Assembly: GCA_013286575.1 (NCBI GenBank)
Contig: JABDFL010000002.1
Coordinates: 11,143-75,142, forward strand
Length of the DNA: 64,000 nt
Direction of reading: 5' to 3'
From: Candidatus Omnitrophota bacterium
GTDB lineage: Bacteria; Omnitrophota; Gorgyraeia; Zapsychrales; Fredricksoniimonadaceae
The stretch's first letter is position 1. Each line of letters begins with the position of its first letter. The notes under the pieces were generated by a model that ran no database searches, had not been told where the DNA came from, and saw only the letters and a program-made list of their open reading frames with translations. This document shows, piece by piece, positions 29,675 through 61,950 of the stretch. The position numbers and the translations under genes are program-made.

Positions 29675-30064
29675 CTAGAGAAAACTCTGTATTTTCCTGA
29701 GTATTAAGCTGGCAGCTTCTTTGTCTGGGCTGACACCGCCGACCCGGACTTCCACCTTGGTGGAATGATCGGTCACCCGATGGATATCAATCCACATTTC
29801 CCTTCCGTCGCTATAAGAACCTTTAATTTGTGTTGTGTTTTCATCCTGCTTTTCTGAAACCACTGTTAAGTCAAGTGCCTGCAACGCTGACTTGGCTGAG
29901 TCAACGGTCGCCTGGTAAGGGGCATGAAATTCCTGCGTCAATTTTCCCGAAAGCCAAACCGCTGTTCCTGCCCCTCCTACTGCCCCGACAAATAAAGCAA
30001 AACAACCACATAAATTAAACATCAGCATTCCCGATACAATCAGAAGCATGGTCTTTCTGAGCAT
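29675..30064 (-). CDS. DUF3568-like lipoprotein
   Basis: Signal peptide with Cys lipobox-like MLMFNLCGC, then GKLTQEFHAPYQATVDSAKSALQALDL...; SD GAGGAGGG upstream. Confidence 0.6.
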   Translation of the reverse strand: MLRKTMLLIVSGMLMFNLCGCFALFVGAVGGAGTAVWLSGKLTQEFHAPYQATVDSAKSALQALDLTVVSEKQDENTTQIKGSYSDGREMWIDIHRVTDHSTKVEVRVGGVSPDKEAASLILRKIQSFL

Positions 30065-30086: not shown

Positions 30087-30135
30087 TAACAAGTATAAAA
30101 TAATGAAGATTAAAAAAAGATGAATTGAATATTAG
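30087..30135 (-). promoter_or_regulatory. Divergent copy (f) of the recurrent TAACAA...ATGAAR...ATTAA element
   Basis: TAACAA-GTATAAAAT-AATGAAG-ATTAAAAAAA-GATGAAT-TGAAT-ATTAG. Same ends and ATGAA cores as the other copies but longer spacers. It sits 22 nt upstream of ATG 30064. Confidence 0.35.
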
Positions 30136-30137
30136 TT

Positions 30138-31607
30138 TTAATAAGGCAGGATGACTTTGAAGGTGCTTCCCTGGGACATCCGGCTTTCGACCTGGATCTC
30201 TCCCTGGTGGAGTTTGGCGATCGTATGGGCAATATTCAGCCCTAAACCGCTGCCCGGGGTGTTTTTATCCGCACGGTAAAACTCTTCAAAAATCTTCTTC
30301 AAATTTTCAGGGGCGATGCCCGGCCCCGTATCGCTGATACAGCTTATGACCTTGCCGTGGCTGATCTCAATGCGCATATCAACACAGCCGCCTTCCGGCG
30401 TAAATTTGATGGCATTGTCGATAATATTAAAAAATAACCGGCGCAGATGAAACCTGTCGCCTGTGATCATCAAAGGCGGCGTGACGTTTTTGGTGTCCAT
30501 CCTGATCCCGATCCCTTTGTTGGCGGCCAAAAGACGGTTTTGTTCGACGATTTCATTAAAAAACTCGATAAAATCAAATTGCTCAAATTTAAACACCTCC
30601 TGGCTGTAACCCAATTTGGTCAATAATAATAAATCATCCACTGTTTTAAGTACACGTTGCGATTCTTCCATAATGATCCGCAAAGCCTGCTTGTACTCAT
30701 GGATGGAACGGTCACGGCGCAATAAAAGGTTCGCCTCCCCCTGAATGATCGTCAACGGGGTTTTTAATTCATGGGCCACGTGATAGCTGAATTGTTCAAT
30801 ATGTTTAAAAGATTTTTCCAGACGGGCGATCATCCCATTGAAAGATTCGATCAAAGACTCCATCTCCCGGTCAAAATGTTTGGTTTTGATCCGGGCAGAC
30901 AAATCCTGCTGTGTGATCCGGTCAGCCATATCGGTGATTTCATAAACCGGCTGCAGGATCCTGGCAGCCAATAATCTCCCGACAAAATTTGTCAAAAGCA
31001 GGATCAACGGCACGCTGATGGCAATGGAATACAGCCAGTTGCGCAGCTGCTGCAAAATAGGGTCCTGGGCGACACCTACCTGTATCAAATATTGACCAAC
31101 GGCCCTGTCGGTGAATTGCTCACTGATCACCCGGATATTCTTATGGTCCATATTCAAAGTCCTGAAAATGACCCCGCCGCGTTTAGGAAACTGCGTGTCT
31201 TCCAGAAAAATGGACCGCAGGCCTTTGTCCATATTGGAAGAACTAAACACTTCCTTCTGGCCTTTACTGACAAAATTGATATAGTCCCTGCTTAAATTAA
31301 AGGATTGCGCCTGGGCCCTCCATTTCTGGGAAACTTTCCAGGTCTTGAACTGGAGGATATTATCATTTCTCATGGCCATGGTTTTTCCAACGGCCTCTAC
31401 CAAGGCCTCATGACTTTCCCCCAAAACATTTAGATAAGACCTGATAGTCAAATCAACAGCCTGGGCCTTGATTTTAAGCTGCTGGTCTGTTTGCTGTAAA
31501 AAGGCATTGGAAATAAGATAGAGAACGCCGCTGAAGGCAATGAGGATAAGGCCTAAAATAGCCGTGTAAAGAATGCTGATCTCGAATTTAATGGAATTGA
31601 ATTTCAT
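30138..31607 (-). CDS. Membrane sensor histidine kinase (periplasmic loop-HAMP-HisKA-HATPase; CusS/BaeS-like)
   Basis: Two TMs flank a loop of about 150 aa. HAMP ILQPVYEITDMADRITQQDLSARI. H-box FSYHVAHELKTPLTIIQGEANLL. FFNIIDNAIKFTPEGG, ISDTGPGIAPE, PGSGLGLNIAHTIAKLHQG. Confidence 0.85.
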   Translation of the reverse strand: MKFNSIKFEISILYTAILGLILIAFSGVLYLISNAFLQQTDQQLKIKAQAVDLTIRSYLNVLGESHEALVEAVGKTMAMRNDNILQFKTWKVSQKWRAQAQSFNLSRDYINFVSKGQKEVFSSSNMDKGLRSIFLEDTQFPKRGGVIFRTLNMDHKNIRVISEQFTDRAVGQYLIQVGVAQDPILQQLRNWLYSIAISVPLILLLTNFVGRLLAARILQPVYEITDMADRITQQDLSARIKTKHFDREMESLIESFNGMIARLEKSFKHIEQFSYHVAHELKTPLTIIQGEANLLLRRDRSIHEYKQALRIIMEESQRVLKTVDDLLLLTKLGYSQEVFKFEQFDFIEFFNEIVEQNRLLAANKGIGIRMDTKNVTPPLMITGDRFHLRRLFFNIIDNAIKFTPEGGCVDMRIEISHGKVISCISDTGPGIAPENLKKIFEEFYRADKNTPGSGLGLNIAHTIAKLHQGEIQVESRMSQGSTFKVILPY

Positions 31608-32278
31608 GCGGAATTTTTCAGCATATACCCTGATCCGCGCAGGGTGTGGATCAACTTCTTCTTAAATCCATCGTCGACTTTATTGCGCAGATTGCGGATA
31701 TGGACGTCGATGACATTGGTCATGCTGTCAAATTGTTCATTCCATACATGTTCGGAAATCATGGAGCGGCTGATCACCTGGCCCGCGTTGAGCATGAGAT
31801 ATTCCAGCAACGCAAATTCTTTGGCCGTTAAAACCATCATTTTTCCCGTTCTCCTGACTTCGTGGTTGAGCTGGTTTAATTCCAGATCAGCCACTTTTAA
31901 AACAGAGGTCTTGGTTGCGGCCGGACGCCTTAACAGGACCTTGACCCGGGCCAGCAATTCTTCAAATGAAAATGGTTTGGTCAAATAATCGTCCGCACCG
32001 GCGTTAAGCCCCGTGACCTTGTCCTTCACTGCGGCCCGGGCGGTCAGCATCAGGATGGGAGTATTGATTTTTTTTGAACGCAGCTGACGGCACATGTCTA
32101 CCCCCTCGTATTTAGGGAGCATGATGTCAAAAATCATCAAATCATAAGGGTTGATTTCAGCCAGGTACAGCCCCTGTTCTCCGTCATAGGCGATGTCCAC
32201 GGCATAATGTTCTTCTTTGAGCCCCCGTGCAATGAAATCTGCGATACGCTTTTCATCTTCCACCACAAGGATCCGCAT
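31604..32278 (-). CDS. OmpR/PhoB-family response regulator (REC + winged helix; CusR/CopR-like)
   Basis: MRILVVEDEKRIADF, DLMIFDIMLPKYEG, ILMLTARA, DYLTKPF. wHTH LTAKEFALLEYLMLNAGQVISRSMISEHVW...IDVHIRNLRNKV. SD GAAGGAGGTG. Confidence 0.9.
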   Translation of the reverse strand: MRILVVEDEKRIADFIARGLKEEHYAVDIAYDGEQGLYLAEINPYDLMIFDIMLPKYEGVDMCRQLRSKKINTPILMLTARAAVKDKVTGLNAGADDYLTKPFSFEELLARVKVLLRRPAATKTSVLKVADLELNQLNHEVRRTGKMMVLTAKEFALLEYLMLNAGQVISRSMISEHVWNEQFDSMTNVIDVHIRNLRNKVDDGFKKKLIHTLRGSGYMLKNSA

Positions 32279-33327: not shown

Positions 33328-34901
33328 ATGCCTTCTTTGACGGAAAAATGAAATGTCGTTCCTTCATCTACTGTTGAATCAACCCATATTTTCCCGCCAT
33401 GGTTTTCCACAATTTTTTTACATATGGCAAGCCCTATGCCGGTACCGGAATATTCGGATTTTCCGTGGAGCCTTTGAAACATATCAAAAATACGTTCCTT
33501 AAACCGGGAGTCAATGCCTATGCCGTTGTCCCTGACTGAAAAAACCCAGCCATTCCCTTCAGATCTGGCGGCGATTTGTATTTCCAGGGGCCTTTGACTC
33601 CTGTATTTGACTGCATTGACTATTAAATTCTGAAAAAGCTGGACCATTTCCAAATGATTGGTTTTTAGGACGGGCATTGCACCATATTGGATGGCTCCAC
33701 CCGCTTCATCGATAATCATTCTTAAATTGGCCAATACTTCCGTTAATACAGAGGAAACATCCACCATCTCAAAAGACTTCACTTTACCTATACAGCTGTA
33801 TTCCAATAGATCTTTGATCAGCCTTTGCGCCTGGTCCACGCCTTCTTTAATGAATTTTAAATATTGCCGCCCCCGGTCATCCAATTGGGATTGAAAACGT
33901 TTTTCCAGAAGGAAAACAAAAGAAGAAACCACATGCAGCGGTTCTTTAAGGTCATGGGAGGCCACATAGGCATATTCTTCCAGTTCTTTATTTGACCGGT
34001 TGAGTTCCTGGGTGAGCACCTTGAAGGATTCCTCCGTGCTTTTGATCTTGTCTATATCGGTGCAACTGGCGATCCAACTGATATTTTCCCCGTTCTTTAT
34101 TTCGGGCACGACCCTCACTAAATGCCACCTGTAGATGCCGTCCCGGGCGGAACGCAGGCGCATTTCAATCTCGCCAATCTGCGTATTTTGACGGGACATA
34201 CGCAGCCAAAATGCCAGGAATTTCCTTCTGTCTTTGGGATGGACCAGTAATTTCCAATCTACGTCCGATTTAAATCCCGTATATTCCAGCCACCGTTCAT
34301 TGCAATACTCGACAAACCCTGAAGGTTTTATCTTAATAATGCTGTGCGGGACCGCGTCGGCCAAATGGGCGTAACTGCGGAAGCTTTCCTGTTTTAATTC
34401 AAAGATCTGCCGTTCTTTTTCCTGTGACTCAATCTGCCTTAATAAAACGGCCTGGCGTTTGATCTGCAAATTTTTTTCGAAAAGATCGACAAATATGTTT
34501 ATTTTTGATTTGAGAACAAACGGATCAAAGGGCTTAAAAATATAATCCACTGCCCCGCTTTCATATCCCTGGTTGATATGGCGGATTTCTTTGTTGATGG
34601 CCGTCACAAAAATAATGGGAGTGTCCCGGGAACGGTAATTTTCCCGCAATAGCTTGGCGGTCTCAAAGCCGTCCATCTCCGGCATTTGAACATCAAGGAG
34701 GATCACTGCAAAATCATCAAATACAGCATGCTGCAAAGCTTCCTGGCCGCTGCCGGCTTTAAAAAGATTATACCGGTCACAGGAAAGCACCGCCTCCAAG
34801 GCAAGCAACCCATCCGGCCGGTCATCCACCACCAGAATATTGGTCCTCGTCAACGGCTGGGTCTCAACTCCTGCCTTAGTGTCCGTTATTTGTTCAGCCA
34901 T
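33324..34901 (-). CDS. Hybrid histidine kinase REC-PAS-HisKA-HATPase
   Basis: REC: [41 protein letters not shown]-box [55 protein letters not shown]. Start overlaps the upstream gene by 16 nt. Confidence 0.85.
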
Positions 34902-37900
34902 GAATACATCACCGACAGAAGACGGTCTGTGTCTACAGGTTTAGTAATATAATCAGAGGCCCCGGCGTCCAAACACTGTTCACGGTCCCCTTTCATTGCT
35001 TTGGCTGTCAAAGCAATAATAGGCAAAGATTCAAATTTGGATATTTTTCGTATCATTTTAATGGCATCAAAACCATTCATCTCCGGCATCATGATATCCA
35101 TCAATATTAAATCCGTGTCCGGTTTTTCATTTAAACGGCGGATCCCTGATTTACCGTTATCAGCATGGGTGACAATCATCCCCCAAGGCTCAAGGACGCT
35201 TGTCAATGCATAGATATTACGCATATCGTCATCCACGATAAGGATCCTTTTGCCTTTAAAATCAGCGTTCTTCGGTAAGGTTGGGGCAACAATTTCCCGG
35301 TTGTTGCTGCTGCTTTTGACGGTTTCCGCGCCGACATATTTCTCCGGCAAATAAAGCGTGAAGACACTGCCCATGCCAGGAGCACTTTCCACCTTGATAA
35401 TACCTCCCAACAAACGGGCAATTTCACGGCTGATGGTGAGGCCCAAACCAGTACCTCCGTATTTACGGCTGGTCGTCCCGTCAGCCTGCTGAAATGCCTC
35501 AAAAATAATATTTTGTTTGTCCACAGGGATACCGATACCGGTATCTCTGACGGCAAAGGCAAGGACAGAAGGGCTTTTATCCAGGGTCTCTATGCCGAAG
35601 CGCTTTTCTCTTTCCACGACCTTGATGTACATCTTGACTTCACCTTTTTCCGTGAATTTAATGGCATTGGACAGGAGGTTCTTGAGGATTTGCTGTAAAC
35701 GGTTATTGTCCGTAAAAACAGTTTTAGGCAGGTTCCCGTTGGCATTAATAGTGAAGTTGAGGTTTTTGTGCTCTGCCAGCGGACGGAAATTATGCTCCAG
35801 GTACTCATAAATCTGGGGCAGCTGGATTTCCTGCGGTTCGATGGACATTTTACCGGCTTCTACCTTGGAAAGATCAAGGATCTCGTTGATCAGGGTCAGC
35901 AGGTCCTGTCCCGTCGAGTGGACGGTCGAAGCATACTTGATCTGGTCCGGCGACAAATTATTATCTTTGTTTTCAGACAGGGCTTTGGAAAGGATAAGCA
36001 GGCTGTTCAAAGGAGTGCGCAGCTCATGGGACATGTTGGCCAGGAATTCTGATTTGTATTTGGAAATCAGGGACAGCTGTTCGGCTTTTTCCTCCAACGA
36101 GAGGCTCGCCATCTCAACTTCTTTATTCTTTAACTCCAAGAGCTTGGCTTTGTCTTCAAGCTCCTTGGCCTGGTTTTCCAATTCCGAGTTGGAACGTTTG
36201 ACTTCCTGCAGGAGCTCTTCGGTCCTCATGGTGGAAGAGATCATGTTTAAGATGACCCCGACGCTGTCCATGAGCTGGTCCAAGAAGTTGAGATAATTGA
36301 CGCTAAAAGATTGGAAGCTGGCCAGCTCAATAACGGCTTTTAACTCTCCTTCAAAAACGACCGGCAAAAGAAGGATATTTTGCGGCGTTGCTGCCCCTAA
36401 GCCGGAGGTGATGGAGATATACTCTTGAGGTGGTTTAGTGATTAATATCCGTTTCTTCTCAAAGGCGCACTGCCCCACCAGGGATTCCTTGAGACGATAG
36501 GTGCTGGAAAGATTTTTACGTTCATTAAACGCATAACTCGCAATGAGGGTCAATACGGTTTCATTGTCCTCCTGCTGGGCCACAAAGAAGGCCCCGTGTT
36601 GAGCGTCGACGATGGGTGTTAATTCCGACATGATCAATTGGGCCACCGCAGTCAGGTTTCTCTGGCCTTGCATCATGCCGGAGAAGCGGGCCAGGTTTGT
36701 TTTTAACCAGTCCTGGTCTTTGTTTTGGGCGGTGGTGTCTTTTAAGTTGGTAATCATCTGGTTGATATTGTCCTTGAGCGCCGCCACTTCCCCTTGGGCC
36801 TCGACGGCAATGGATCGTGTCAAATCACCCTTCGTAACAGCGGTCGAAACCTCGGCAATCGCACGCACCTGGGAAGTCAGGTTCCCTGCCAGCTGATTGA
36901 CGTTGACAGTCAAGTCTTTCCAGATACCGGAGGCGCCGGGGACCTTGGCCTGGCCGCCGAGCTTTCCTTCAATACCTACTTCACGGGCCACGGTTGTTAC
37001 CTGGTCGGCAAAGGTACGCAGGGTGTCTGTCATGCTGTTGATTGTTTCCGCCAGGCCTGCCACTTCTCCTTTGGCTTCCAAAACGAATTTTTCACTTAAG
37101 TCCCCGTTAGCAACAGCAGTCACGACCTTGATGATGCCGCGTACTTGTTTGGTCAAATTACCGGCCATGAAATTGACGTTATCCGTCAAGTCCTTCCACA
37201 CACCGGAAGCTCCGGGCACCTTGGCCTGGCCGCCGAGCTGGCCTTCGATACCCACTTCACGGGCCACGGTCGTTACCTGGTCAGCAAAGGTACTGAGCGT
37301 GTCGATCATGTTGTTGATGGTTTCTGCCAGGGCCGCCACTTCTCCTTTGGCTTCCAGAACGAATTTTTGATTCAAATCGCCGTTTGCGACGGCGGTAACG
37401 ACCTTGACGATACCGCGCACCTGTTTGGTCAAATTACCGGCCATGAAATTGACGTTATCCGTAAGATCCTTCCAGGTACCGGAAACACCTTTGACGTCCG
37501 CCTGACCGCCTAATTTCCCTTCTGTACCGACTTCCTTGGCCACACGGGTAACTTCCGCCGCAAATGAATTGAGTTGGTCCACCATGGTGTTGATCATGTT
37601 CTTCAACTCCAGGATTTCTCCCCTGGCGTCTACCGTGATCTTCTGCGACAAGTCCCCCTTGGCAACGGCGGTCGTAACCTTAGCGATGTTACGCACCTGA
37701 TTGGTCAAGTTACCGGCCATGAAATTGACATTTTCCGTTAAATCTTTCCAGGTACCTGAAACACCCTTGACCTCTGCCTGACCGCCTAATTTCCCTTCTG
37801 TACCGACTTCCTTGGCCACACGGGTGACTTCCGCTGCGAAAGAGTTGAGTTGGTCCAACATGGTGTTGATGGTGTTTTTTAATTCCAGGATTTCTCCTTT

Positions 37901-40309
37901 AGCATCGACGGTAATCTTCTGTGACAAGTCTCCCTTGGCAACAGCGGTCGTAACCTTAGCGATGTTACGCACCTGATTCGTTAAGTTACCGGCCAAGACG
38001 TTGACGTTATCCGTAAGATCCTTCCAGGTACCGGAAACACCTTTGACGTCTGCCTGACCGCCTAATTTCCCTTCCGTACCGACTTCCTTGGCCACACGGG
38101 TAACTTCCGCCGCAAATGAATTGAGTTGGTCCACCATGATGTTGATGGTGTTTTTAAGTTCCAGAATTTCACCTTTAGCATCGACGGTAATCTTCTGTGA
38201 CAAGTCTCCCTTGGCAACAGCGGTCGTAACTTTAGCGATATTACGCACCTGATCTGTTAAGTTCCCGGCCAAGACGTTGACGTTATCCGTAAGATCCTTC
38301 CACACACCTGATACCCCTTTGACAAAAGCCTGACCGCCGAGTTTACCGCCGGTACCGACTTCCTTGGCCACACGGGTAACTTCCGCCGCAAATGAATTGA
38401 GTTGGTCCACCATGGTGTTGATCATGTTCTTCAACTCCAGGATCTCTCCCTTGGCGTCTACCGTGATTTTCTGCGACAAGTCCCCTTTGGCCACAGCGGT
38501 CGTAACTTTAGCAATGTTACGCACCTGATTGGTCAAGTTACCCGCCATGAAATTAACGTTATCCGTAAGATCCTTCCAGGTACCGGAAACACCTTTGACG
38601 TCCGCCTGACCGCCCAGCTTTCCTTCTGTACCTACTTCCTTGGCCACACGGGTGACTTCCGCCGCAAATGAATTGAGTTGGTCCACCATGATGTTGATGG
38701 TATTTTTAAGCTCCAGAATTTCACCTTTAGCATCGACGGTGATCTTCTGTGACAAGTCTCCCTTGGCAACAGCGGTCGTAACTTTAGCGATATTACGCAC
38801 CTGATTCGTCAAGTTACCGGCCAGCTGATTAACGTTATCTGTGAGATCCTTCCAGGTACCGGAAACACCTTTGACGTCGGCCTGACCGCCTAATTTCCCT
38901 TCTGTACCGACTTCCTTGGCCACACGGGTAACTTCCGCTGCGAAGGAGTTAAGTTGGTCCACCATGATGTTGATGGTGTTTTTAAGTTCTGAGATTTCTC
39001 CTTTGGCGTCAACCATGATTTTCTGCGACAAGTCTCCCTTGGCAACAGCGGTCGTAACCTTAGCGATGTTGCGCACCTGATTCGTCAAGTTACCGGCCAA
39101 AACATTGACGTTATCCGTCAGGTCTTTCCATGTACCGGACACTCCTTTGACGTCTGCCTGACCGCCTAATTTCCCTTCCGTACCAACTTCCTTGGCCACA
39201 CGGGTGACTTCCGCCGCAAATGAATTGAGTTGGTCCACCATGATGTTGATGGTATTTTTTAATTCCAGGATTTCTCCTTTGGCGTCTACCGTAATTTTCT
39301 GCGACAAGTCTCCTTTGGCAACGGCGGTCGTAACTTTAGCGATGTTACGCACCTGATTCGTTAAGTTACCGGCCAAAACGTTGACGTTATCCGTAAGATC
39401 CTTCCACGTACCGGAAACACCCTTAACATCGGCCTGACCGCCTAATTTCCCTTCCGTACCGACTTCCTTGGCCACACGGGTAACTTCCGCTGCGAAGGAG
39501 TTAAGTTGGTCCACCATGATGTTAATGGTGTTTTTAAGCTCTGAGATTTCTCCCTTGGCATCGACGGTGATTTTCTGTGACAAATCTCCCTTGGCTACAG
39601 CAGTTGTAACCTTAGCGATGTTGCGCACCTGATTCGTTAAGTTACCGGCCAAGACGTTGACGTTGTCCGTCAAGTCTTTCCAAACGCCCAATACCCCTTT
39701 AACATCCGCCTGGCCGCCTAATTTACCTTCCAGACCGACTTCCTTGGCCACGCGCGAAACTTCCGACGAGAAGAAACTCAACTGATCAAGCATGGAATTA
39801 ACGACTGTCCCGATCCTTAAATATTCCCCTTTCAAAGTCCGTCCTTCAATTTCCAAAGGCATTTTTTGGGACAAGTCGCCTTTAGCAACCGATGTGATGA
39901 CACGCGCAAATTCATTGGTGGGTTGGACGAGGTTAGAGATAAGAGAATTGATGGAATCCATCCCCGTGGCCCAACCGCCTTTGACCGGCCCGATGGAAGC
40001 ACGCTCGGTTAATTTACCTTCTTCGCCGACAATAGCGCTGACACGGGCAAATTCATTGATCATATTTTCGTTCAAATCCAGGATATCATTAAGGACTTCC
40101 CCTATTTCACTGGGCAAGCCATCTTCCTCAACAGGAAAACGCACGGAAAGATTTCCCTGCCGCACGGCTTTGGCTATATGCAGCATCTTCCTTAATTGGT
40201 CCTTTTTAGGATCTCCCCCATTCCCGTTCTCAAAAACAGGCGCTGCAGGCGTTGCTGCCCTGTTATTTTCTTTATTTTCATTCTCTAAAAACCGCACTGT
40301 TGGGGGCAT
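34886..40309 (-). CDS. Giant soluble hybrid histidine kinase: poly-HAMP array (about 12 x 92 aa)-GAF-HisKA-HATPase-REC
   Basis: No N-terminal TM. Repeated [95 protein letters not shown] ([27 protein letters not shown]). [67 protein letters not shown]: [51 protein letters not shown] precedes ATG 40309. Confidence 0.9.
36690..40180 (-). repeat. In-frame tandem repeat array, period 276 bp (92 codons), encoding the HAMP units
   Basis: Period confirmed at DNA level: 37921 vs 39301 (offset 1380 = 5x276) and 37441 vs about 38545 (offset 1104 = 4x276). The outer units are diverged. Confidence 0.9.
37520..39727 (-). repeat. High-identity core of the array: 8 consecutive near-identical 276-bp units
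   Basis: Units differ from the commonest unit at no more than about 7 of 92 residues. In one 120-nt comparison, 114/120 nt were identical. Confidence 0.85.
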
Positions 40310-40494: not shown

Positions 40495-40764
40495 TCAGGA
40501 TTCCAGGACTTTTTTCTTTTGTGCGAATTCTTCCGCATCAATTTCACCGGAAGCAAATCTTTTCTTTAAGGTATCCATGGCTGAATCCTGTTTCTTAGGA
40601 TCATCCATTGGCCTTCCTGTTTGAGATTTTGAAGAATTCTGGAACAAATAGACAAAACCGAATACGGCCAGTAATAAAATAATAAGAATGAATAATGCCC
40701 CCGTATTATGCCAATAATCCTGGTACCAATAAACATCATGCCAATGACCGAATTCATCGTACAT
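40495..40764 (-). CDS. SHOCT-domain membrane protein with His/Trp/Tyr-rich N-terminus
   Basis: MYDEFGHWHDVYWYQDYWHNTG, one TM, C-terminal SHOCT-like LKKRFASGEIDAEEFAQKKKVL. SD GGAGGA. Confidence 0.65.
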   Translation of the reverse strand: MYDEFGHWHDVYWYQDYWHNTGALFILIILLLAVFGFVYLFQNSSKSQTGRPMDDPKKQDSAMDTLKKRFASGEIDAEEFAQKKKVLES

Positions 40765-40821: not shown

Positions 40822-41421
40822 TCATCTCCCATACATCGTTTGTAATTGTGAGATCCTTGGGAATACGGAATAAAATTCTCCCTGAGGGCCCACATACCCA
40901 TTACCCGATCTCCTAAGAGTGACGGCCACATACCCGCCGCCATGACTGGGTACATTGACCGTAACAGCGTTGGGTGTATTGATGACCGCTACAGGCGCTG
41001 CCTGGACAGGCTGTGAAACGACCTGGTAGCCGCTGGGAGTTTGTACATAATAGGTCCCATTATTCACATAATAAGTGGCACCGTTAATCACGACCGGTTG
41101 AAAATCCGGCGGGATGGTGGCCACTACAGCCCCTACAGGAGGAGATACGATCACATAATCCCCGTTGACGTAGCTGTAATACAATCCGTCATAATAATAG
41201 TATCCCACACCTCCGACCCAAACCCTGAAATGCCTGGCCGGGAGATAATGGCTGTGCCAGCCGTAATGCGGATGATCATGCCAACGGTAATAATGATGGT
41301 TGTCATGATATCCCGGAGAACCCAAACTCACTCCCACCCCCCAATCGGCGTAAGAATATTTGGGCCAAACGCATAAAATCAACGCCCCTAAAACAACAGG
41401 CAAAATATACAAATTTTTCAT
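40822..41421 (-). CDS. Secreted His/Tyr-rich protein of unknown function
   Basis: Signal peptide MKNLYILPVVLGALILCVWPKYSYA, then HDNHHYYRWHDHPHYGWHSHY and Tyr-rich GATYYVNNGTYYVQTPSGY. SD AAGGAGG. Confidence 0.6.
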   Translation of the reverse strand: MKNLYILPVVLGALILCVWPKYSYADWGVGVSLGSPGYHDNHHYYRWHDHPHYGWHSHYLPARHFRVWVGGVGYYYYDGLYYSYVNGDYVIVSPPVGAVVATIPPDFQPVVINGATYYVNNGTYYVQTPSGYQVVSQPVQAAPVAVINTPNAVTVNVPSHGGGYVAVTLRRSGNGYVGPQGEFYSVFPRISQLQTMYGR

Positions 41422-41455
41422 TTTGACCTCCTTGATTGATGTTCCGTCTGCAGTG

Positions 41456-41495
41456 TAACAAAATCAAAATGAAGACAAAATGAAAACAAAATTAA
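41456..41495 (-). promoter_or_regulatory. Copy (a) of the recurrent 40-nt element
   Basis: TAACAAAATCAAAATGAAGACAAAATGAAAACAAAATTAA, 34 nt upstream of ATG 41421. Confidence 0.5.
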
Positions 41496-41522
41496 ACCCA
41501 GGCATTTTATCTCAGGGAGGAT

Positions 41523-41562
41523 TTTTTGCCTGGTTATGTGTTGGGACATAACCAGGCAAAAA
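41523..41562 (-). other. Perfect 17-bp stem / 6-nt loop hairpin in the 280-bp intergenic region
   Basis: Plus strand TTTTTGCCTGGTTATGT-GTTGGG-ACATAACCAGGCAAAAA. The A/T runs are part of the stem, so this is not a canonical intrinsic terminator in either direction. Confidence 0.6.
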
Positions 41563-41643
41563 TGGGGAAACAAACTGATTACTCATGGTGCGGATGATGG
41601 CGGGGGCTATTGAATTGATTTTTATCCATTTCATTTTTTAGAA

Positions 41644-41695
41644 TAACAAATCTAAGATTAAGAGAAGATGAAAATAAAATGAAAATAACCATTAA
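41644..41695 (-). promoter_or_regulatory. Copy (b) of the recurrent element, with one extra 11-12-nt unit
   Basis: TAACAAATCTAAGATTAAGAGAAGATGAAAATAAAATGAAAATAACCATTAA. It starts 6 nt after the stop at 41702. Confidence 0.5.
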
Positions 41696-41701
41696 TCCTG
41701 C

Positions 41702-41962
41702 CTACCGGTAAAGATCATTCATACGGACCAGTTCCTTCGGCGGATGGATTTCCACTTCGGCCTTAGAAGCTGAAGATACCAATCTTACAAGTTTCTGCAC
41801 CAAAACAGCCAGGCGGATTTCCCGTTTCATGTGCCAGGCCAGTGCTTTCTGCATACGGTCCTCGGAAATCCTGCCAAGTCCATTACGCAATAGAATAATC
41901 ATTTCCCGCTGTTTACGATGGATCTCTACAAAATACTGCCGATAAATCTCTTCAGTAAACAT
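41702..41962 (-). CDS. Small helical protein, unknown function (86 aa)
   Basis: Start at ATG 41960-41962 (MFTEEIYRQYF...), preceded by GAGGGGG; the track ORF begins at a TTG. Last gene of the EPS-like operon. Confidence 0.5.
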   Translation of the reverse strand: MFTEEIYRQYFVEIHRKQREMIILLRNGLGRISEDRMQKALAWHMKREIRLAVLVQKLVRLVSSASKAEVEIHPPKELVRMNDLYR

Positions 41963-42185
41963 CTTTTTCCCCCTCTTTGACCTGCTCAATGAGCTGCCTC
42001 ATGAATATTTTATGTTCGTAACTTTCTCTATGAAGAGTGTTTAATGTCTCTTTGATTTTATTCCTTAAATCCTTATCAAATCCCGAAAGATAAAGGGTGT
42101 TCATAATATGCTCTGAATAAAGCAATATGCCCTCTTCAATCTTGCGGCCCTGCTCTAAAAAAACCAGCAATTCATCTCTGGTCAT
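41952..42185 (-). CDS. Small helical protein, unknown function (77 aa)
   Basis: MTRDELLVFLEQGRKIEEG...; overlaps the GH8 stop by 14 nt and the next gene by 11 nt (translational coupling). Confidence 0.5.
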   Translation of the reverse strand: MTRDELLVFLEQGRKIEEGILLYSEHIMNTLYLSGFDKDLRNKIKETLNTLHRESYEHKIFMRQLIEQVKEGEKDVY

Positions 42186-43326
42186 AGGTTTCTTCCTGGT
42201 TTAAAAGTTCTGTGACCCAGACAATGCTGTTAACATAATATTCCCTGGGATTTTGATAATACGCCCCTTTAAACCCCCTATGGATCGAAGCGCGCAGTTT
42301 AGTAATGGCCTGGGCCGCAAGATCATGGTTATCGGTCAATTCAAAAGTGACATAGGCAACCGCATACATTAATGGGCTTTCCTGCGTATCTTTTAAAGGC
42401 TTTCCGTCATAACTGTACTCGCTCATCAATTTGCCCCTGTTTTTTAACTCCCCTTCAAAAAAATTGGAGAATTTTTCCAATATATCAAGCGCCCGCGGGT
42501 CTCTGTTGAAAAACTCATCAATACCGATGCGAAAAGGCACGCGCACAGCTTCCCAGGCAAAATTACCGGATTTCCCGTCATAAGAAGAAAGGTTTCCGCT
42601 GCGGTCCACACTGACCCAATCAGGCACAAGACCGACCCCCGCCACCCCATTAAAACTCTTCTGGGCTTGCGCCGACAAAATATAGGAAGTATTGACAAGC
42701 TCAAGCCAGCGCGGGTCATGGTCAAAGGCATAAAATGATTTAAAATAAGCGGGTGAATAATAAGAAAGATTTTGCGGGATTTTATCCAGCGAAGATGGAG
42801 AGTCGATGATCCAGGGAAGAAGATATCTGTGATACTTGAAAACGACCGTCAATATATTAAGGATATCTTTGAGCGACCGCCCTGCCATGTCTGCGTAAGA
42901 ATCATTCTTCCATTGCTGGGAAGCAAGGACCAGGGCCATGGCATAATCGATGTCCGCATCAGTGGCCGGCATCCCGTCACGGACCGAACCGTCGATATAA
43001 TGCCATGATAAAAGATGGTCGCCGAATTTTTCCTGGCGCGAAAGATTATCTTCGGTCCACCGCAGCAGGTTGTCAAAGGCCGGGCGGTCTCCCATCACCA
43101 CAGCCCTTAACATGGCATTGGCCTGGCCTTCGGAGGTGGTGTCCTGCTCAGGGAAGCGCAGCACCCTGCCATCGGATTCTATAAAATAAGATTTATACCC
43201 CTGCCATGTTTCCGAAAGGATATGGGAAGACCGGCGCGACTGGCTGTCCTGGTGCGTCGATAAAACCCAGGCAAATAAAAGAAACGCCCCGAAACCGGAG
43301 AGTAATATCAGGAATATCGACCTCAT
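42172..43326 (-). CDS. Glycoside hydrolase family 8 (BcsZ-like endo-beta-glucanase)
   Basis: DTTSEGQANAMLRAVVMGDRPAFDNLLRWTEDNL is the GH8 catalytic-region motif. Signal anchor MRSIFLILLSGFGAFLLFAWVL. ATGA overlap with the synthase stop. Confidence 0.75.
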   Translation of the reverse strand: MRSIFLILLSGFGAFLLFAWVLSTHQDSQSRRSSHILSETWQGYKSYFIESDGRVLRFPEQDTTSEGQANAMLRAVVMGDRPAFDNLLRWTEDNLSRQEKFGDHLLSWHYIDGSVRDGMPATDADIDYAMALVLASQQWKNDSYADMAGRSLKDILNILTVVFKYHRYLLPWIIDSPSSLDKIPQNLSYYSPAYFKSFYAFDHDPRWLELVNTSYILSAQAQKSFNGVAGVGLVPDWVSVDRSGNLSSYDGKSGNFAWEAVRVPFRIGIDEFFNRDPRALDILEKFSNFFEGELKNRGKLMSEYSYDGKPLKDTQESPLMYAVAYVTFELTDNHDLAAQAITKLRASIHRGFKGAYYQNPREYYVNSIVWVTELLNQEETYDQR

Positions 43327-48555: not shown

Positions 48556-48894
48556 TTATTCCATTGGTAATCCTGCCTCTTTCCATTCCGTAATGCCTCC
48601 TTCATAAGCAGACACTCTAAAACCCCGGGTAAAAAGTTTTTCTGCGGCCTTATGGGAAGCCGGACAATCATAACTGGCACAGTAGGTCACCACTTCGATG
48701 TTCCTGTCAAGTTCCCCCAAACGGCTGTCCAGCTGGTCCAACGGGATTTTCTTGGAACCTTTAATCAATCCCAAATTATATTGTTTGGGATCAAGGACAT
48801 TGACGATTTGTACCGGTTGAACATTTTTGATCTTTTCAGCAAGCTCTTCCTTGGTAATGGTCCTGATATTGGATTTTGTCATATGTACTGTCAT
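48556..48894 (-). CDS. Single-domain rhodanese-like sulfurtransferase
   Basis: VVTYCASYDCPASHKAAEKL (active-site Cys loop) and GGITEWKEAGLP. SD GGAGGT. Confidence 0.75.
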   Translation of the reverse strand: MTVHMTKSNIRTITKEELAEKIKNVQPVQIVNVLDPKQYNLGLIKGSKKIPLDQLDSRLGELDRNIEVVTYCASYDCPASHKAAEKLFTRGFRVSAYEGGITEWKEAGLPME

Positions 48895-48963
48895 AATATT
48901 ACCTCCATGGTTAATTGATCATTTACCCTTCTTTAATCATGCCATTGATTTACAGATGCACTT

Positions 48964-49003
48964 TAACAAACCAAAAATGAAAAGAAGATGAAAATATAAT
49001 TAA
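48964..49003 (-). promoter_or_regulatory. Copy (c) of the recurrent 40-nt element
   Basis: TAACAAACCAAAAATGAAAAGAAGATGAAAATATAATTAA, 69 nt upstream of ATG 48894. Confidence 0.5.
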
Positions 49004-58374: not shown

Positions 58375-59028
58375 TTATGAAAGATCCCCTTGTTCTTCCG
58401 GATTTTCCAGATTAGGATTTCCTTCGCTGATAAAACGGGAAACATCCGTATTTTTATTTTTCTTCTTGATGCCTCCCCTGCGGAACTTTTCCTTAGGTAT
58501 ATAAAACCCTCCTTGCTGCCGGTCGAAATCTTTAGGGTCTATGGTCTGGATGTTAATGATGCCCTGGGCCAATTCGTTTAAATGAAAATTCATGGCCCGC
58601 TCATCATTAAGGGTCTTAGTAAATAATTCCACGATCTTCGTGTGCCCAAGATCAGCCGCGTGCTCGCGGACCTTTTTATATTCGGCAATTTCGTATTGCT
58701 CCATCCGCTGCGCCACCCAGATAATGGCAGCATCCCGGGTTTGGGACTTTTCTGTTTTCTTTATTACATCTTCACTCTCGGCAATAAGTTCTTTCATGGT
58801 TTTACAGTTCGACTTTTGGGGGGTCTGTCCGGTATTACTAAAAATACCCTGTAAGCGGTCAATATGTTCCCTGGTAATTTCCAGATAACTTCCCAGGGTG
58901 TTCTTTAATGCCGATGATTGGCTGGCCTCTGCCATTTTAGGCAGGGCCTCGATCAGCTGGTCCTCCGCGTCTAACAAATTAGCCAACTCTTCCACTAATA
59001 AATCGCTCAAGGATTCTGTTTTTCTCAT
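58375..59028 (-). CDS. DUF892 (YciE/YciF ferritin-like) stress protein with basic C-terminal tail
   Basis: LLVEELANLLDAEDQLIEALPKMAE, RDAAIIWVAQRMEQYEIAEY. Start at ATG 59026-59028, preceded by AGGAGG; the track ORF starts at a GTG. Confidence 0.7.
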   Translation of the reverse strand: MRKTESLSDLLVEELANLLDAEDQLIEALPKMAEASQSSALKNTLGSYLEITREHIDRLQGIFSNTGQTPQKSNCKTMKELIAESEDVIKKTEKSQTRDAAIIWVAQRMEQYEIAEYKKVREHAADLGHTKIVELFTKTLNDERAMNFHLNELAQGIINIQTIDPKDFDRQQGGFYIPKEKFRRGGIKKKNKNTDVSRFISEGNPNLENPEEQGDLS

Positions 59029-59048
59029 AGTCTGCCTCCTCTTTAGAT

Positions 59049-59378
59049 TCACACCATATCTTCACTTTCCATTGGGACCCTTGTGATTATAATCGCCGTA
59101 TTTTTATTACGGGCCGTTTGATACTCCACCTGGACATTGTCTCCTTCTTCAAGATCTGACAATCGTTGCATATTGCTATACCGGGTGTTCGGGTCAATTT
59201 CCACGCGGACTTCTCCGCCATCGAAATCATCTGAGACCTTGATGGAACGGGGATCTATGTCTTTGACGCTCCCCGCCACCACTCCTCTGGTGTTAAATGA
59301 TTCTGCCCGGTCGCTTACGGCAAGGAAAACAACACCGACCGCAATTACGAACATTGTAAATAATAAATTGATTTTCAT
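59049..59378 (-). CDS. Small exported protein, unknown function
   Basis: Signal anchor MKINLLFTMFVIAVGVVFLAVS. Alternative ATG at 59408. Confidence 0.5.
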   Translation of the reverse strand: MKINLLFTMFVIAVGVVFLAVSDRAESFNTRGVVAGSVKDIDPRSIKVSDDFDGGEVRVEIDPNTRYSNMQRLSDLEEGDNVQVEYQTARNKNTAIIITRVPMESEDMV

Positions 59379-59429
59379 AAATCCCGCCTCTACAAAGAGT
59401 GTCCGCATCTTTTTTTCCCACCCCTACGC

Positions 59430-59469
59430 TACCAAAAGGAAGATGAAAATCAGATGAAACCAGAATTAA
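59430..59469 (-). promoter_or_regulatory. Copy (d) of the recurrent 40-nt element
   Basis: TACCAAAAGGAAGATGAAAATCAGATGAAACCAGAATTAA, in the divergent region, 21/51 nt upstream of ATG 59408/59378. Confidence 0.5.
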
Positions 59470-61661: not shown

Positions 61662-61872
61662 CTAAGGTCGCCGGTTGCTCTTTGGAATCCGGTTGCGCCT
61701 CTGAGGTGCTTGAATTAACTGCCAGAGTTGAATCAGTTGCTGAAGTTGAATTTACCGTTTGGTTTGAATTGGCATAATTCTTAAACCCGTCTTCATTCAC
61801 AGAAGAAACCTGCTGACGGCATCCCTGCAGAATGATGAAACACAAAAGACACATAAGAAGAACAATATTCAC
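61645..61872 (-). CDS. Small Ser/Thr/Asn-rich lipoprotein
   Basis: GTG 61870-61872 preceded by AGGAGG (6-nt spacer); signal/lipobox (M)NIVLLMCLLCFIILQGC. The 3' end overlaps the convergent MMPL gene by 17 nt. Confidence 0.55.
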   Translation of the reverse strand: MNIVLLMCLLCFIILQGCRQQVSSVNEDGFKNYANSNQTVNSTSATDSTLAVNSSTSEAQPDSKEQPATLVNAAF

Positions 61873-61910
61873 CTCACACCTCCTTTCCTTTGCTTTACCC
61901 ATTTTTACGT

Positions 61911-61950
61911 TAACAAACAGAAGATGAAAATAAAATGAAACAAAAATTAA
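61911..61950 (-). promoter_or_regulatory. Copy (e) of the recurrent 40-nt element
   Basis: TAACAAACAGAAGATGAAAATAAAATGAAACAAAAATTAA, 38 nt upstream of GTG 61872 and 25 nt after the stop at 61976. Confidence 0.5.

What the first reader, a model, noticed from the sequence alone, without database searches (positions are those of the whole stretch)
41422..41701. Fixed-length 40-nt AT-rich element with 11-bp-phased ATGAAA repeats, six copies, always upstream of minus-strand envelope genes (two copies in this spacer)
Seen (plus strand, all in the same orientation): 61911-61950 TAACAAACAGAAGATGAAAATAAAATGAAACAAAAATTAA; 41456-41495 TAACAAAATCAAAATGAAGACAAAATGAAAACAAAATTAA; 48964-49003 TAACAAACCAAAAATGAAAAGAAGATGAAAATATAATTAA; 59430-59469 TACCAAAAGGAAGATGAAAATCAGATGAAACCAGAATTAA. 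These are four copies of exactly 40 nt: TAACAA-N6-RATGAAR-ANNA-RATGAAA-N5-ATTAA. Copy 41644-41695 has one extra 11-12-nt unit (GATTAAG-AGAA), and 30087-30135 is a looser variant. In gene sense the element reads TTAAT-N5-TTTCAT-N5-TTTCAT-N6-TTTGTTA, that is, direct repeats one helical turn apart. It ends 9-69 nt before the starts of lipoprotein 61872, exported protein 59378/59408, the rhodanese/EPS operon 48894, the His-rich protein 41421, mini-ORFs 41629/41634 and DUF3568 lipoprotein 30064; where an SD is visible (the copies before 61872, 41421, 30064 and 48894) it lies downstream of the element. Established: tandem direct repeats at 10-11-bp phasing overlapping the -35 region are the classic OmpR/PhoB-family binding layout. 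Inference: a shared promoter/operator module defining an envelope regulon, possibly served by the OmpR-type regulator at 31604-32278.
Basis: partly seen in the sequence, partly recalled or inferred. Interest (0 to 1): 0.7.

Follow-up and report, generated by a model that had tools for sequence, protein, structure and literature searches.

The report
Shared response-regulator promoter of stress genes
Six copies of a 40-base promoter module (three TT(C/A)AT boxes one helical turn apart, at a fixed distance from an extended -10) head a set of envelope and stress genes in an Omnitrophota bacterium and are most likely switched by the CopR/CusR-like two-component regulator encoded nearby; this is a well-supported new example of a familiar kind of control, not a new kind of element.

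Summary
A weight matrix built only from 21 metagenome instances finds exactly the six window copies. All six are in gene sense and intergenic, at 24.6-64.3 bits against a shuffle maximum of -2.6. The element holds three TT(C/A)AT half-sites in 11-bp phase, about -50 to -24. It ends in TTTGnTAnnnT, an extended -10 with no -35 hexamer. The T at -7 was not in the search pattern, yet it is kept in 25 of 25 strict instances. Copy 6 is a canonical copy with a TATACT -10. Copy 5 has four half-sites.

Similar elements in other metagenomes head recurring gene families: DUF892, DUF6515, DUF5666, DUF3568, trehalose genes and a 46-aa acidic peptide.

Orthologues of the regulator at 31604-32278 and its kinase lie immediately upstream of an element in several lineages. 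This also held in 4 of 4 loci fetched from the regulator protein alone.

The regulator scores just below the heavy-metal CopR/CusR model. Its operator is a direct TTCAT repeat, like the putative Synechocystis CopR site and unlike the inverted copper box.

Binding, activation, transcription start and the signal remain untested. I rate it a new member of a known kind, of moderate interest.

The parts
41456..41495 (-). Copy 2, the proximal module of the focal spacer. It has TTAAT at 41491-41495, TTTCAT at 41480-41485, CTTCAT at 41469-41474 and TTTGTTA at 41456-41462. It ends 34 nt before the DUF6515 start at 41421.
   Evidence: Exact pattern match. Weight-matrix score 51.2 bits. Coordinates.
41452..41462 (-). 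Extended -10 of copy 2, TTTGTTACACT, with hexamer TACACT at 41452-41457.
   Evidence: Sequence read. The T at the last hexamer position is kept in 25 of 25 strict instances although it was not in the search pattern.
41644..41695 (-). Copy 5, the distal module of the focal spacer, with four phased units: TTAAT 41691-41695, TTCAT 41679-41683, TTTCAT 41668-41673 and CTTAAT 41657-41662. The extended -10 is TTTGTTATTCT at 41640-41650.
   Evidence: Two mismatches to the pattern. The weight matrix aligns 41630-41691 at 48.5 bits. Coordinates.
41523..41562 (.). A 17-bp perfect inverted repeat between the two modules, of unknown role. It is transcribed if copy 5 is active.
   Evidence: Found. RNA fold z-score -3.9. 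Not terminator-like. No counterpart in related loci.
40822..41421 (-). Target gene: an exported His/Tyr-rich DUF6515 protein, followed by a SHOCT-domain protein at 40495-40764.
   Evidence: Pfam PF20125, E=9.8e-18, and PF09851. DUF6515 genes follow the element in L009, L022, L023, L026, L035 and L032.
61907..61950 (-). Copy 1 with its -10 hexamer TAACGT. It lies 38 nt upstream of the 75-aa lipoprotein gene at 61645-61872.
   Evidence: (58.3 bits).
59426..59469 (-). Copy 4 with its -10 hexamer TAGCGT. It lies upstream of the DUF5666 gene (start 59378 or 59408) and the DUF892 gene (58375-59052), and diverges from the MMPL transporter gene that starts at 59532.
   Evidence: (64.3 bits). The same element-DUF5666-DUF892 order occurs in L025 and L033.
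48960..49003 (-). Copy 3 with its -10 hexamer TAAAGT. It lies 69 nt upstream of a gene string: rhodanese (48556-48894), DUF2934, three TPR proteins, a cellulose-synthase-like GT2 and a GH8.
   Evidence: (45.4 bits).
30092..30135 (-). Copy 6, realigned: CTAAT, ATTCAT, TTTAAT and -10 TATACT. It starts 3 nt after the kinase stop codon and lies 31 nt upstream of the string DUF3568 (29675-30064), a TM protein, OtsA, OtsB and a GH15 enzyme.
   Evidence: Weight matrix 24.6 bits. Coordinates. Gene content.
31604..32278 (-). OmpR/PhoB-family response regulator, close to the CopR/CusR/HprR/RppA group. It is the proposed binder of the boxes.
   Evidence: Pfam PF00072 and PF00486. TIGR01387 scores 272.6 bits against a cut-off of 279.2. 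Orthologues are adjacent to elements. The recognition-helix block TNVIDVHIRNLRNK is conserved.
30138..31607 (-). The cognate HAMP-HisKA-HATPase sensor kinase. It has a periplasmic domain of about 160 aa with no recognised fold family.
   Evidence: Pfam. TIGR01386 scores 243 bits against a cut-off of 292.55. PDB matches cover only the cytoplasmic part.

Best explanation
Each copy is a complete activator-dependent promoter for the housekeeping sigma factor. Its 3' end, TTTGnTAnnnT, is an extended -10. There is no -35 hexamer. [quoted passage not shown]

The phosphorylated OmpR/PhoB-family regulator at 31604-32278, paired with the kinase at 30138-31607, binds these boxes head-to-tail. It recruits RNA polymerase in the way PhoB does at a Pho box (class II activation).

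In this way one two-component system co-induces a dispersed set of genes. These encode small exported proteins (DUF6515, DUF5666, DUF3568, lipoproteins), a ferritin-like DUF892 protein, trehalose synthesis and a cellulose-like exopolysaccharide operon. This looks like an envelope/osmotic or metal stress regulon of an Omnitrophota bacterium. The focal spacer carries two such promoters in tandem.

Shown by computation: the motif, its anatomy, its conservation and its linkage to the regulator. Inferred: the -10 assignment, binding, activation rather than repression, and the signal.
For: 1. Non-chance and specific: 5 pattern matches against 0 in 100 shuffles. A weight matrix built from external sequences recovers exactly the six copies and nothing else in the window.

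2. Promoter anatomy: TGnTAnnnT follows in 5 of 6 window copies. Copy 6 lacks the TG but has the near-consensus hexamer TATACT. In 21 independent metagenome instances and the 4 strict window copies, the T at hexamer position 6 is invariant (25 of 25) although it was not in the search pattern. A CAG about 7 nt after the hexamer is frequent, as expected at a start site. A Shine-Dalgarno (SD) sequence and start codon follow at a median of about 50 nt in 45 of 49 instances. The standard -35/-10 scan reports no promoter at either copy, which is consistent with a missing -35.

3. Regulon conservation: the first or second genes after the element recur across loci. They are DUF892, DUF6515, DUF5666, DUF3568, a single-domain receiver, DUF1328, DUF2934, a 46-aa acidic peptide and trehalose genes.

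4. Regulator linkage: orthologues of the window regulator and kinase, at 42-66% identity, lie just upstream of the element in L010/L019, L013, L037/L016 and L002, and within 3 kb in two Ca. Electronema genomes. In the reverse test, four orthologue loci were fetched from the protein alone (71-82% identity). All four have a hit 4-16 nt after the kinase stop codon. Only two other hits occur in about 83 kb, both in L039 and both upstream of genes.

5. Family precedent: the regulator is nearest to the CopR/CusR/HprR/RppA group. The putative site of Synechocystis CopR is a direct TTCAT-N4-5-TTCAT repeat, which is also found in the nrsRS-nrsBACD region (PMC4182526).
Against: - There is no experimental start site, binding or expression data.
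- An extended -10 can work without a -35. The promoters could therefore be constitutive and the boxes could repress.
- The regulator gene itself has no element directly upstream in the window, so autoregulation is not evident there.
- The distal TTAAT with its preceding A-run could be an UP-like element rather than a third half-site.
- Many external instances come from one JGI sample series, so the number of independent lineages is smaller than the number of loci.
- The signal is unclear. The gene content points to osmotic or envelope stress, while the family name points to metals.
Confidence: 0.72

Rival explanations
1. The operator and the regulator family are as proposed, but the regulator represses. 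The extended -10 promoters are intrinsically active without a -35, and binding at -50 to -24 blocks RNA polymerase. Alternatively, a different OmpR-family paralogue, not the one at 31604-32278, is the binder.
For: Extended -10 promoters can dispense with a -35 (established knowledge). The boxes overlap the spacer and the -35 region. The window and the related loci encode several other receiver proteins.
Against: The box position, 11 bp upstream of the -10 and spanning about -40 to -24, is the Pho-box activation geometry. The hexamers are weak (TAACGT, TAGCGT, TACACT). Only orthologues of 31604-32278 are syntenic with the element. Other OmpR-type regulators in the held loci are about 30% identical to it and are not consistently adjacent.
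Confidence: 0.15
2. The module is the promoter of an alternative, stress-type sigma factor. The central TTTCAT would act as its -35 and TTTGnT as its -10 (17-nt spacer), and the repeats would be incidental.
For: The gene set (DUF892, DUF1328, trehalose, small stress proteins) resembles general-stress regulons that are sigma-controlled in other phyla (own knowledge). The central TTTCAT and TTTGKT are 17 nt apart.
Against: This does not explain the second and third phased copies of the same pentamer. It does not explain the one-turn insertion in copy 5. It does not explain the invariant A and T at exactly the -11 and -7 spacing of a housekeeping -10 with TG at -15/-14. No sigma or anti-sigma gene is syntenic in any locus, whereas the regulator-kinase pair is.
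Confidence: 0.06
3. The element is a small dispersed repeat (MITE- or REP-like), or a 5'-UTR RNA motif, with no operator role.
For: It is multi-copy, AT-rich, of fixed length and intergenic.
Against: It has no terminal inverted repeats and no target duplications. Conservation is column-specific, with free N positions, rather than uniform. It is kept upstream of orthologous genes in organisms whose proteins are only 45-70% identical. Orientation relative to the downstream gene is fixed. Rfam gives no match. If the -10 reading is right, most of the element lies upstream of the transcript, and the element is U-rich with no evident stem.
Confidence: 0.03

Closest known systems
Pho box / PhoB-dependent promoters of E. 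coli (OmpR/PhoB family, class II activation)
   Same: Both have direct repeats at 11-bp phasing. The half-sites are similar (CTGTCAT against TTTTCAT). Both lie about 10-11 bp upstream of the -10, replace the -35 hexamer, and occur in several copies that define a regulon.
   Different: The regulator is not a PhoB orthologue: TIGR02154 scores 205.8 bits against a cut-off of 296.2. No phosphate-related genes are present. There are three or four half-sites and an extended -10.
Putative CopR (and NrsR) sites of Synechocystis PCC 6803: direct TTCAT-N4-5-TTCAT (PMC4182526)
   Same: The half-site is the same TTCAT pentamer, in direct orientation. The regulators belong to the same branch of the family (RppA/NrsR model 223 bits, CusR 238 bits).
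   Different: The spacing here is N6 (11-bp period). There is a third, TTAAT, unit. The targets are not metal efflux genes. The RppA model scores below its cut-off of 250. The host phylum is different.
Copper box / CusR, CopR and AgrR boxes of Proteobacteria: inverted repeat ATKACANNNNTGTMAT (PMC7380067)
   Same: The nearest protein family for both the regulator and the kinase is TIGR01387/TIGR01386. Those promoters are also thought to use type II activation.
   Different: The operator architecture is a direct repeat, not an inverted one, and the sequence differs. Both proteins score just below the family cut-offs. Metal genes are adjacent only in the L002 (Collierbacteria MAG) locus.
Multi-repeat operators of OmpR (F1-F3) and ArcA (two to four direct repeats)
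   Same: More than two phased half-sites are bound by oligomerising OmpR-family regulators. The number of repeats varies between promoters, as it does between copy 5 and the other copies.
   Different: Those regulators act at variable distances from the promoter. Here the distance to the -10 is fixed to the base pair.

Membership tests
OmpR/PhoB-family response-regulator operator (Pho-box-like promoter) | Two or more direct-repeat half-sites about one helical turn (10-11 bp) apart | tested here: met
   TT(C/A)AT lies at element positions 1-5, 12-16 and 23-27 in all six copies and in 21 external instances. Copy 5 carries an extra unit 11 nt on.
OmpR/PhoB-family response-regulator operator (Pho-box-like promoter) | Boxes overlap or replace the -35 region at a fixed distance from a -10 element | tested here: met
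   The proximal box ends 11 nt before TAnnnT. No TTGACA-like hexamer is present. The -10 is inferred from sequence, not mapped.
OmpR/PhoB-family response-regulator operator (Pho-box-like promoter) | A cognate receiver plus winged-helix regulator, with its kinase, co-occurs with the sites | tested here: met
   PF00072 and PF00486 at 31604-32278. Regulator-kinase-element synteny holds in the window, in L010/L019, L013, L037/L016 and L002, and in 4 of 4 loci fetched from the regulator alone.
OmpR/PhoB-family response-regulator operator (Pho-box-like promoter) | Sequence-specific binding and regulator-dependent transcription | not testable with these tools
   This needs EMSA, footprinting or DAP-seq, and reporter or in vitro transcription assays.
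Heavy-metal two-component systems (CusRS/CopRS/CzcRS; TIGR01387/TIGR01386) | Regulator and kinase reach the curated family score | tested here: not met
   The regulator scores 272.6 against a cut-off of 279.2. The kinase scores 243 against 292.55. These are near misses. JGI annotation of close homologues calls them 'heavy metal response regulator' or CusR.
Heavy-metal two-component systems (CusRS/CopRS/CzcRS; TIGR01387/TIGR01386) | Operator is the inverted-repeat copper box (ATKACANNNNTGTMAT) | tested here: not met
   The boxes are direct TTCAT repeats and no such palindrome occurs in the element. The consensus is taken from PMC7380067.
Heavy-metal two-component systems (CusRS/CopRS/CzcRS; TIGR01387/TIGR01386) | Targets are metal efflux or detoxification genes | tested here: inconclusive
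   The window targets are DUF proteins, trehalose genes and an exopolysaccharide operon. Several targets are His-rich. A P-type ATPase neighbours the system only in L002.
Cyanobacterial CopR/NrsR (RppA) type | Direct TTCAT repeats; regulator reaches the RppA equivalog score | tested here: inconclusive
   The half-site is identical. The spacing is N6 here against the reported N4-5. The RppA model scores 223.1 bits against a cut-off of 250.
Extended -10 promoter of the housekeeping sigma factor | TGnTAnnnT with invariant A(-11) and T(-7); start about 7 nt downstream | tested here: met
   The motif is present in 5 of 6 window copies. Copy 6 has TATACT without TG. The T(-7) is kept in 25 of 25 strict instances although it was outside the search pattern. 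The start site itself was not tested.
Dispersed repeat (MITE/REP) or structured RNA family | Terminal inverted repeats or target duplications; or a conserved RNA fold or Rfam match | tested here: not met
   The element has no inverted termini. No Rfam family reaches its gathering score in the window. Conservation is motif-like, not uniform.

The most novel reading that the evidence does not exclude
A CopR/CusR-like two-component system may have been repurposed from metal sensing into the master switch of an osmotic, desiccation or envelope stress regulon. The regulon would be shared across Omnitrophota and would reach into Desulfobulbaceae (cable bacteria) and other uncultured lineages. Its effectors would be mostly uncharacterised small proteins (DUF6515, DUF5666, DUF892, DUF3568, a 46-aa acidic peptide), together with trehalose synthesis and a cellulose-like polymer. 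All would be driven by a rigid three-box, -35-less promoter cassette.
Probability: 0.35. Interest if true: 0.5.

Novelty: new member of a known kind. Interest (0 to 1): 0.35.

Why it matters
Omnitrophota are uncultured, and almost nothing is known about their gene regulation. This motif gives a sequence-level, testable regulon for one of their two-component systems. It ties a group of domains of unknown function (DUF6515, DUF5666, DUF892, DUF3568 and a 46-aa acidic peptide family) to trehalose and exopolysaccharide genes as one co-regulated stress response. It also shows a CopR/CusR-like regulator using direct rather than inverted repeats outside cyanobacteria. The promoter cassette is compact and fixed in length, so it could be tested directly in a heterologous host.

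Tried and rejected
- Rfam, whole window, at gathering thresholds: no family.
- Standard -35/-10 and terminator scans of 41300-42300: the modules are not picked up because they lack a -35. No terminator was found.
- The hairpin at 41523-41562 considered as a terminator: rejected, because the T-run is 5' and the A-run is 3' on both strands.
- Mini-ORFs after copy 5 (40 aa and 16 aa): no Shine-Dalgarno sequence and no homologue in any held locus. Whether they are genes is left open.
- Mobile element or dispersed repeat: rejected, see the rival explanations.
- Cable-bacterium origin, suggested by the first genome hits: rejected. The regulator is 71-88% identical to Omnitrophica/Omnitrophota MAG proteins but only 48-50% identical to the Electronema ones.
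- Membership in the classical heavy-metal (copper-box) system: both protein scores fall below the cut-offs and the operator architecture differs.
- Pattern hits in AT-rich contigs (L003, L006, L011, L014/L031, L020, L034): no regulator or regulon gene nearby. These were treated as chance matches and left out of the matrix.
- Literature search for this motif or for regulation in Omnitrophota: nothing specific found.

Full report
**Observation**

The spacer 41422-41701 lies between the stop codon of a small ORF (41702) and the start of a DUF6515 gene (41421). It contains two of the described AT-rich elements.

All matches are on the + strand. None appeared in 100 dinucleotide-preserving shuffles.

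For an independent test I built a 62-nt weight matrix from 21 non-redundant metagenome instances only. The only further score above 0 bits is a shifted 0.6-bit re-hit of copy 5. The best score in 20 shuffles was -2.6.

All six copies lie in five intergenic gaps of a window that is about 92% covered by ORFs on a crude map. All read in the sense of the downstream minus-strand gene. Orientation within the window is weak evidence by itself, because 46 of 50 ORFs on that map are on the minus strand.

**Anatomy**

In gene sense the element reads TTAAT-N6-TTCAT-N6-TTCAT-N6-TTTGnTA. It therefore holds three TT(C/A)AT units at exact 11-bp phase, not two.

The last two bases and the next four form TAnnnT, preceded by TGn. 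This is the layout of an extended -10.

- The window hexamers are TAACGT, TAGCGT, TAAAGT, TACACT and TATTCT.
- Copy 6 realigns without gaps as a canonical copy at 30096-30135. Its hexamer is the near-consensus TATACT, and it is the only copy without the TG.
- The final T of the hexamer was not part of any search pattern. It is still present in 21 of 21 external instances and in the 4 strict window copies.
- A CAG about 7 nt after the hexamer is common in the external instances, as expected at a start site.

With the hexamer at -12/-7, the boxes sit at about -50/-46, -39/-35 and -28/-24, and there is no TTGACA-like -35. The standard promoter scan accordingly reports no promoter at either copy.

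Copy 5 has one extra unit, reading TTAAT, TTCAT, TTCAT, CTTAAT and then the -10. The insertion is one helical turn, which keeps the phase.

**Origin**

The window overlaps a Logan contig from SRR8422330. The regulator at 31604-32278 is 71-88% identical to proteins of Candidatus Omnitrophica/Omnitrophota MAGs. It is only 48-50% identical to the Ca. Electronema orthologues. The source is therefore an Omnitrophota bacterium.

**Conservation elsewhere**

A scan of species-representative genomes found two full copies on one Omnitrophota MAG contig. It also found looser copies in two Ca. Electronema genomes and one Collierbacteria MAG.

A metagenome scan found 30 loci, of which 21 non-redundant ones look credible. 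The weight matrix then found further copies in the same loci, up to four per 12 kb.

Of 49 non-redundant instances, 45 are followed by a Shine-Dalgarno sequence and a start codon, at a median distance of about 50 nt.

The downstream genes recur across loci:

| Gene family | Where it follows the element |
|---|---|
| DUF892 | window, L009, L015, L017, L022-L025, L033 |
| DUF6515 | window, L009, L022, L023, L026, L032, L035 |
| DUF5666 | window, L005, L025, L033, L040, L042 |
| DUF3568 | window, L025 |
| 46-aa acidic peptide with no Pfam family | seven loci |
| Single-domain receiver | L010, L013, L039, L041 |

DUF1328, DUF2934, His-rich lipoproteins, an MscS channel and trehalose or glycogen genes also occur after the element in one or more loci.

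In the window:
- Copy 6 heads DUF3568, a TM protein, OtsA, OtsB and a GH15 enzyme.
- Copy 3 heads rhodanese, DUF2934, TPR proteins, a cellulose-synthase-like GT2 and a GH8.

**Link to the regulator**

tblastn shows orthologues of the window regulator at 42-66% identity, each with its kinase. They lie directly upstream of an element in L010/L019, L013, L037/L016 and L002. This is the same arrangement as window copy 6, which starts 3 nt after the kinase stop codon. In the two Electronema loci the orthologues lie about 3 kb downstream of the element, on the same strand. Other OmpR-type regulators in the held loci are only about 30% identical to the window regulator.

I then ran the reverse test. 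I fetched four orthologue loci from the protein alone, at 82, 76, 71 and 71% identity, with 10 kb on each side. All four have a matrix hit 4-16 nt after the kinase stop codon, on the gene strand. Only two other hits occur in about 83 kb, both in L039 and both upstream of genes.

The recognition-helix block TNVIDVHIRNLRNK is conserved among these orthologues.

**Family placement**

The regulator scores highest against the heavy-metal subfamily TIGR01387, at 272.6 bits against a cut-off of 279.2. CusR, HprR and RppA follow. The kinase scores highest against TIGR01386, at 243 bits against a cut-off of 292.55.

The closest solved structure is Thermotoga DrrD, 1KGS. The periplasmic part of the kinase matches nothing solved.

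The classical operator of this family is an inverted repeat, ATKACANNNNTGTMAT (PMC7380067). That is not what is found here. The putative sites of Synechocystis CopR, however, are direct TTCAT-N4-5-TTCAT repeats, which are also present in the nrsRS-nrsBACD region (PMC4182526). They share the same pentamer in the same orientation as the boxes found here.

**Mechanism**

The geometry is that of a Pho box: phased direct repeats ending 11 bp upstream of a -10 and standing in for the -35.

The most likely reading (about 0.7) has three steps:
1. The phosphorylated regulator binds the boxes head-to-tail.
2. It recruits RNA polymerase carrying the housekeeping sigma factor to otherwise weak extended -10 promoters.
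3. This co-induces a dispersed regulon.

The focal spacer carries two such promoters in tandem. The distal one (copy 5) either adds a second start for the DUF6515 gene, with a long leader, or makes a short product.

Repression, or binding by a paralogue, cannot be excluded (about 0.15). An alternative-sigma reading explains the repeats and the synteny poorly (about 0.06). A mobile repeat or an RNA motif is very unlikely (about 0.03).

The stimulus is unknown. Trehalose genes, MscS, DUF892, DUF1328 and an exopolysaccharide operon suggest osmotic, desiccation or envelope stress. The His-rich products and the family name suggest metals.

**Unexplained**

A 17-bp perfect hairpin at 41523-41562 is the longest inverted repeat in the window. 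It sits between the two promoters and is not terminator-like. The mini-ORFs after copy 5 are not conserved in the held loci.

**Verdict**

The element is a new member of a known kind: an OmpR/PhoB-family regulon promoter. It is of moderate interest because it defines a testable stress regulon in an uncultured phylum and links several domains of unknown function.

Noticed in passing
window 41523-41562: A 17-bp perfect inverted repeat with a 6-nt loop, the longest in the window, lies between the two promoter copies. The T-run is 5' and the A-run is 3' on both strands, so it is not a terminator. No counterpart exists in related loci.
   Followed up: partly
window 41582-41634 (-): Two mini-ORFs start 9-14 nt after copy 5. 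One is a 40-aa ORF whose ATG would sit at or near the predicted start site (leaderless). The other is a 16-aa His-rich peptide, MDKNQFNSPRHHPHHE. Neither has a Shine-Dalgarno sequence or a homologue in the held loci.
   Followed up: partly
window 34886-40309 (-): An 1807-aa hybrid histidine kinase with 11 tandem HAMP domains plus GAF, HisKA, HATPase and a receiver. A similar poly-HAMP kinase follows an element-driven acidic peptide and receiver gene in L015.
   Followed up: no
L012, L015, L018, L023, L025, L027, L036 (first gene after the element): A 46-49-aa acidic peptide family (MKNK..DWLYQE..DDFLMGKTP..WEDEE) with no Pfam match is the most frequent first gene after the element. It is absent from the window.
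   Followed up: partly
window 59532-61661 (+): An MMPL/HAE3-type RND transporter gene is bracketed by copies 4 and 1 and starts 63 nt from copy 4 on the opposite strand. Its homologue lies next to element-driven small genes in L027 and L036, so it may share the control region.
   Followed up: no
L001 435-5516 and L005 3211-8000 (Ca. Electronema): Looser copies, lacking the distal TTAAT unit (AAACA in its place) and with TGTTCAT as the proximal box, head Tyr/Gly/Asn/His-rich secreted proteins, several DUF5666 proteins and a cytochrome b561-like protein. The regulator-kinase orthologues follow on the same strand, which suggests an autoregulated operon in cable bacteria.
   Followed up: partly
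L002 2136-7305 (Collierbacteria MAG contig): The regulator-kinase orthologues follow an ArsR-type regulator and a heavy-metal P-type ATPase, and are themselves followed by a motif copy. This is the only locus with a clear metal context.
   Followed up: no
L010, L013, L039, L041 (gene after regulator-kinase-element): A single-domain receiver protein of 101-142 aa is the first gene after the element that follows the kinase. It could act as a feedback or phosphate-sink component.
   Followed up: no
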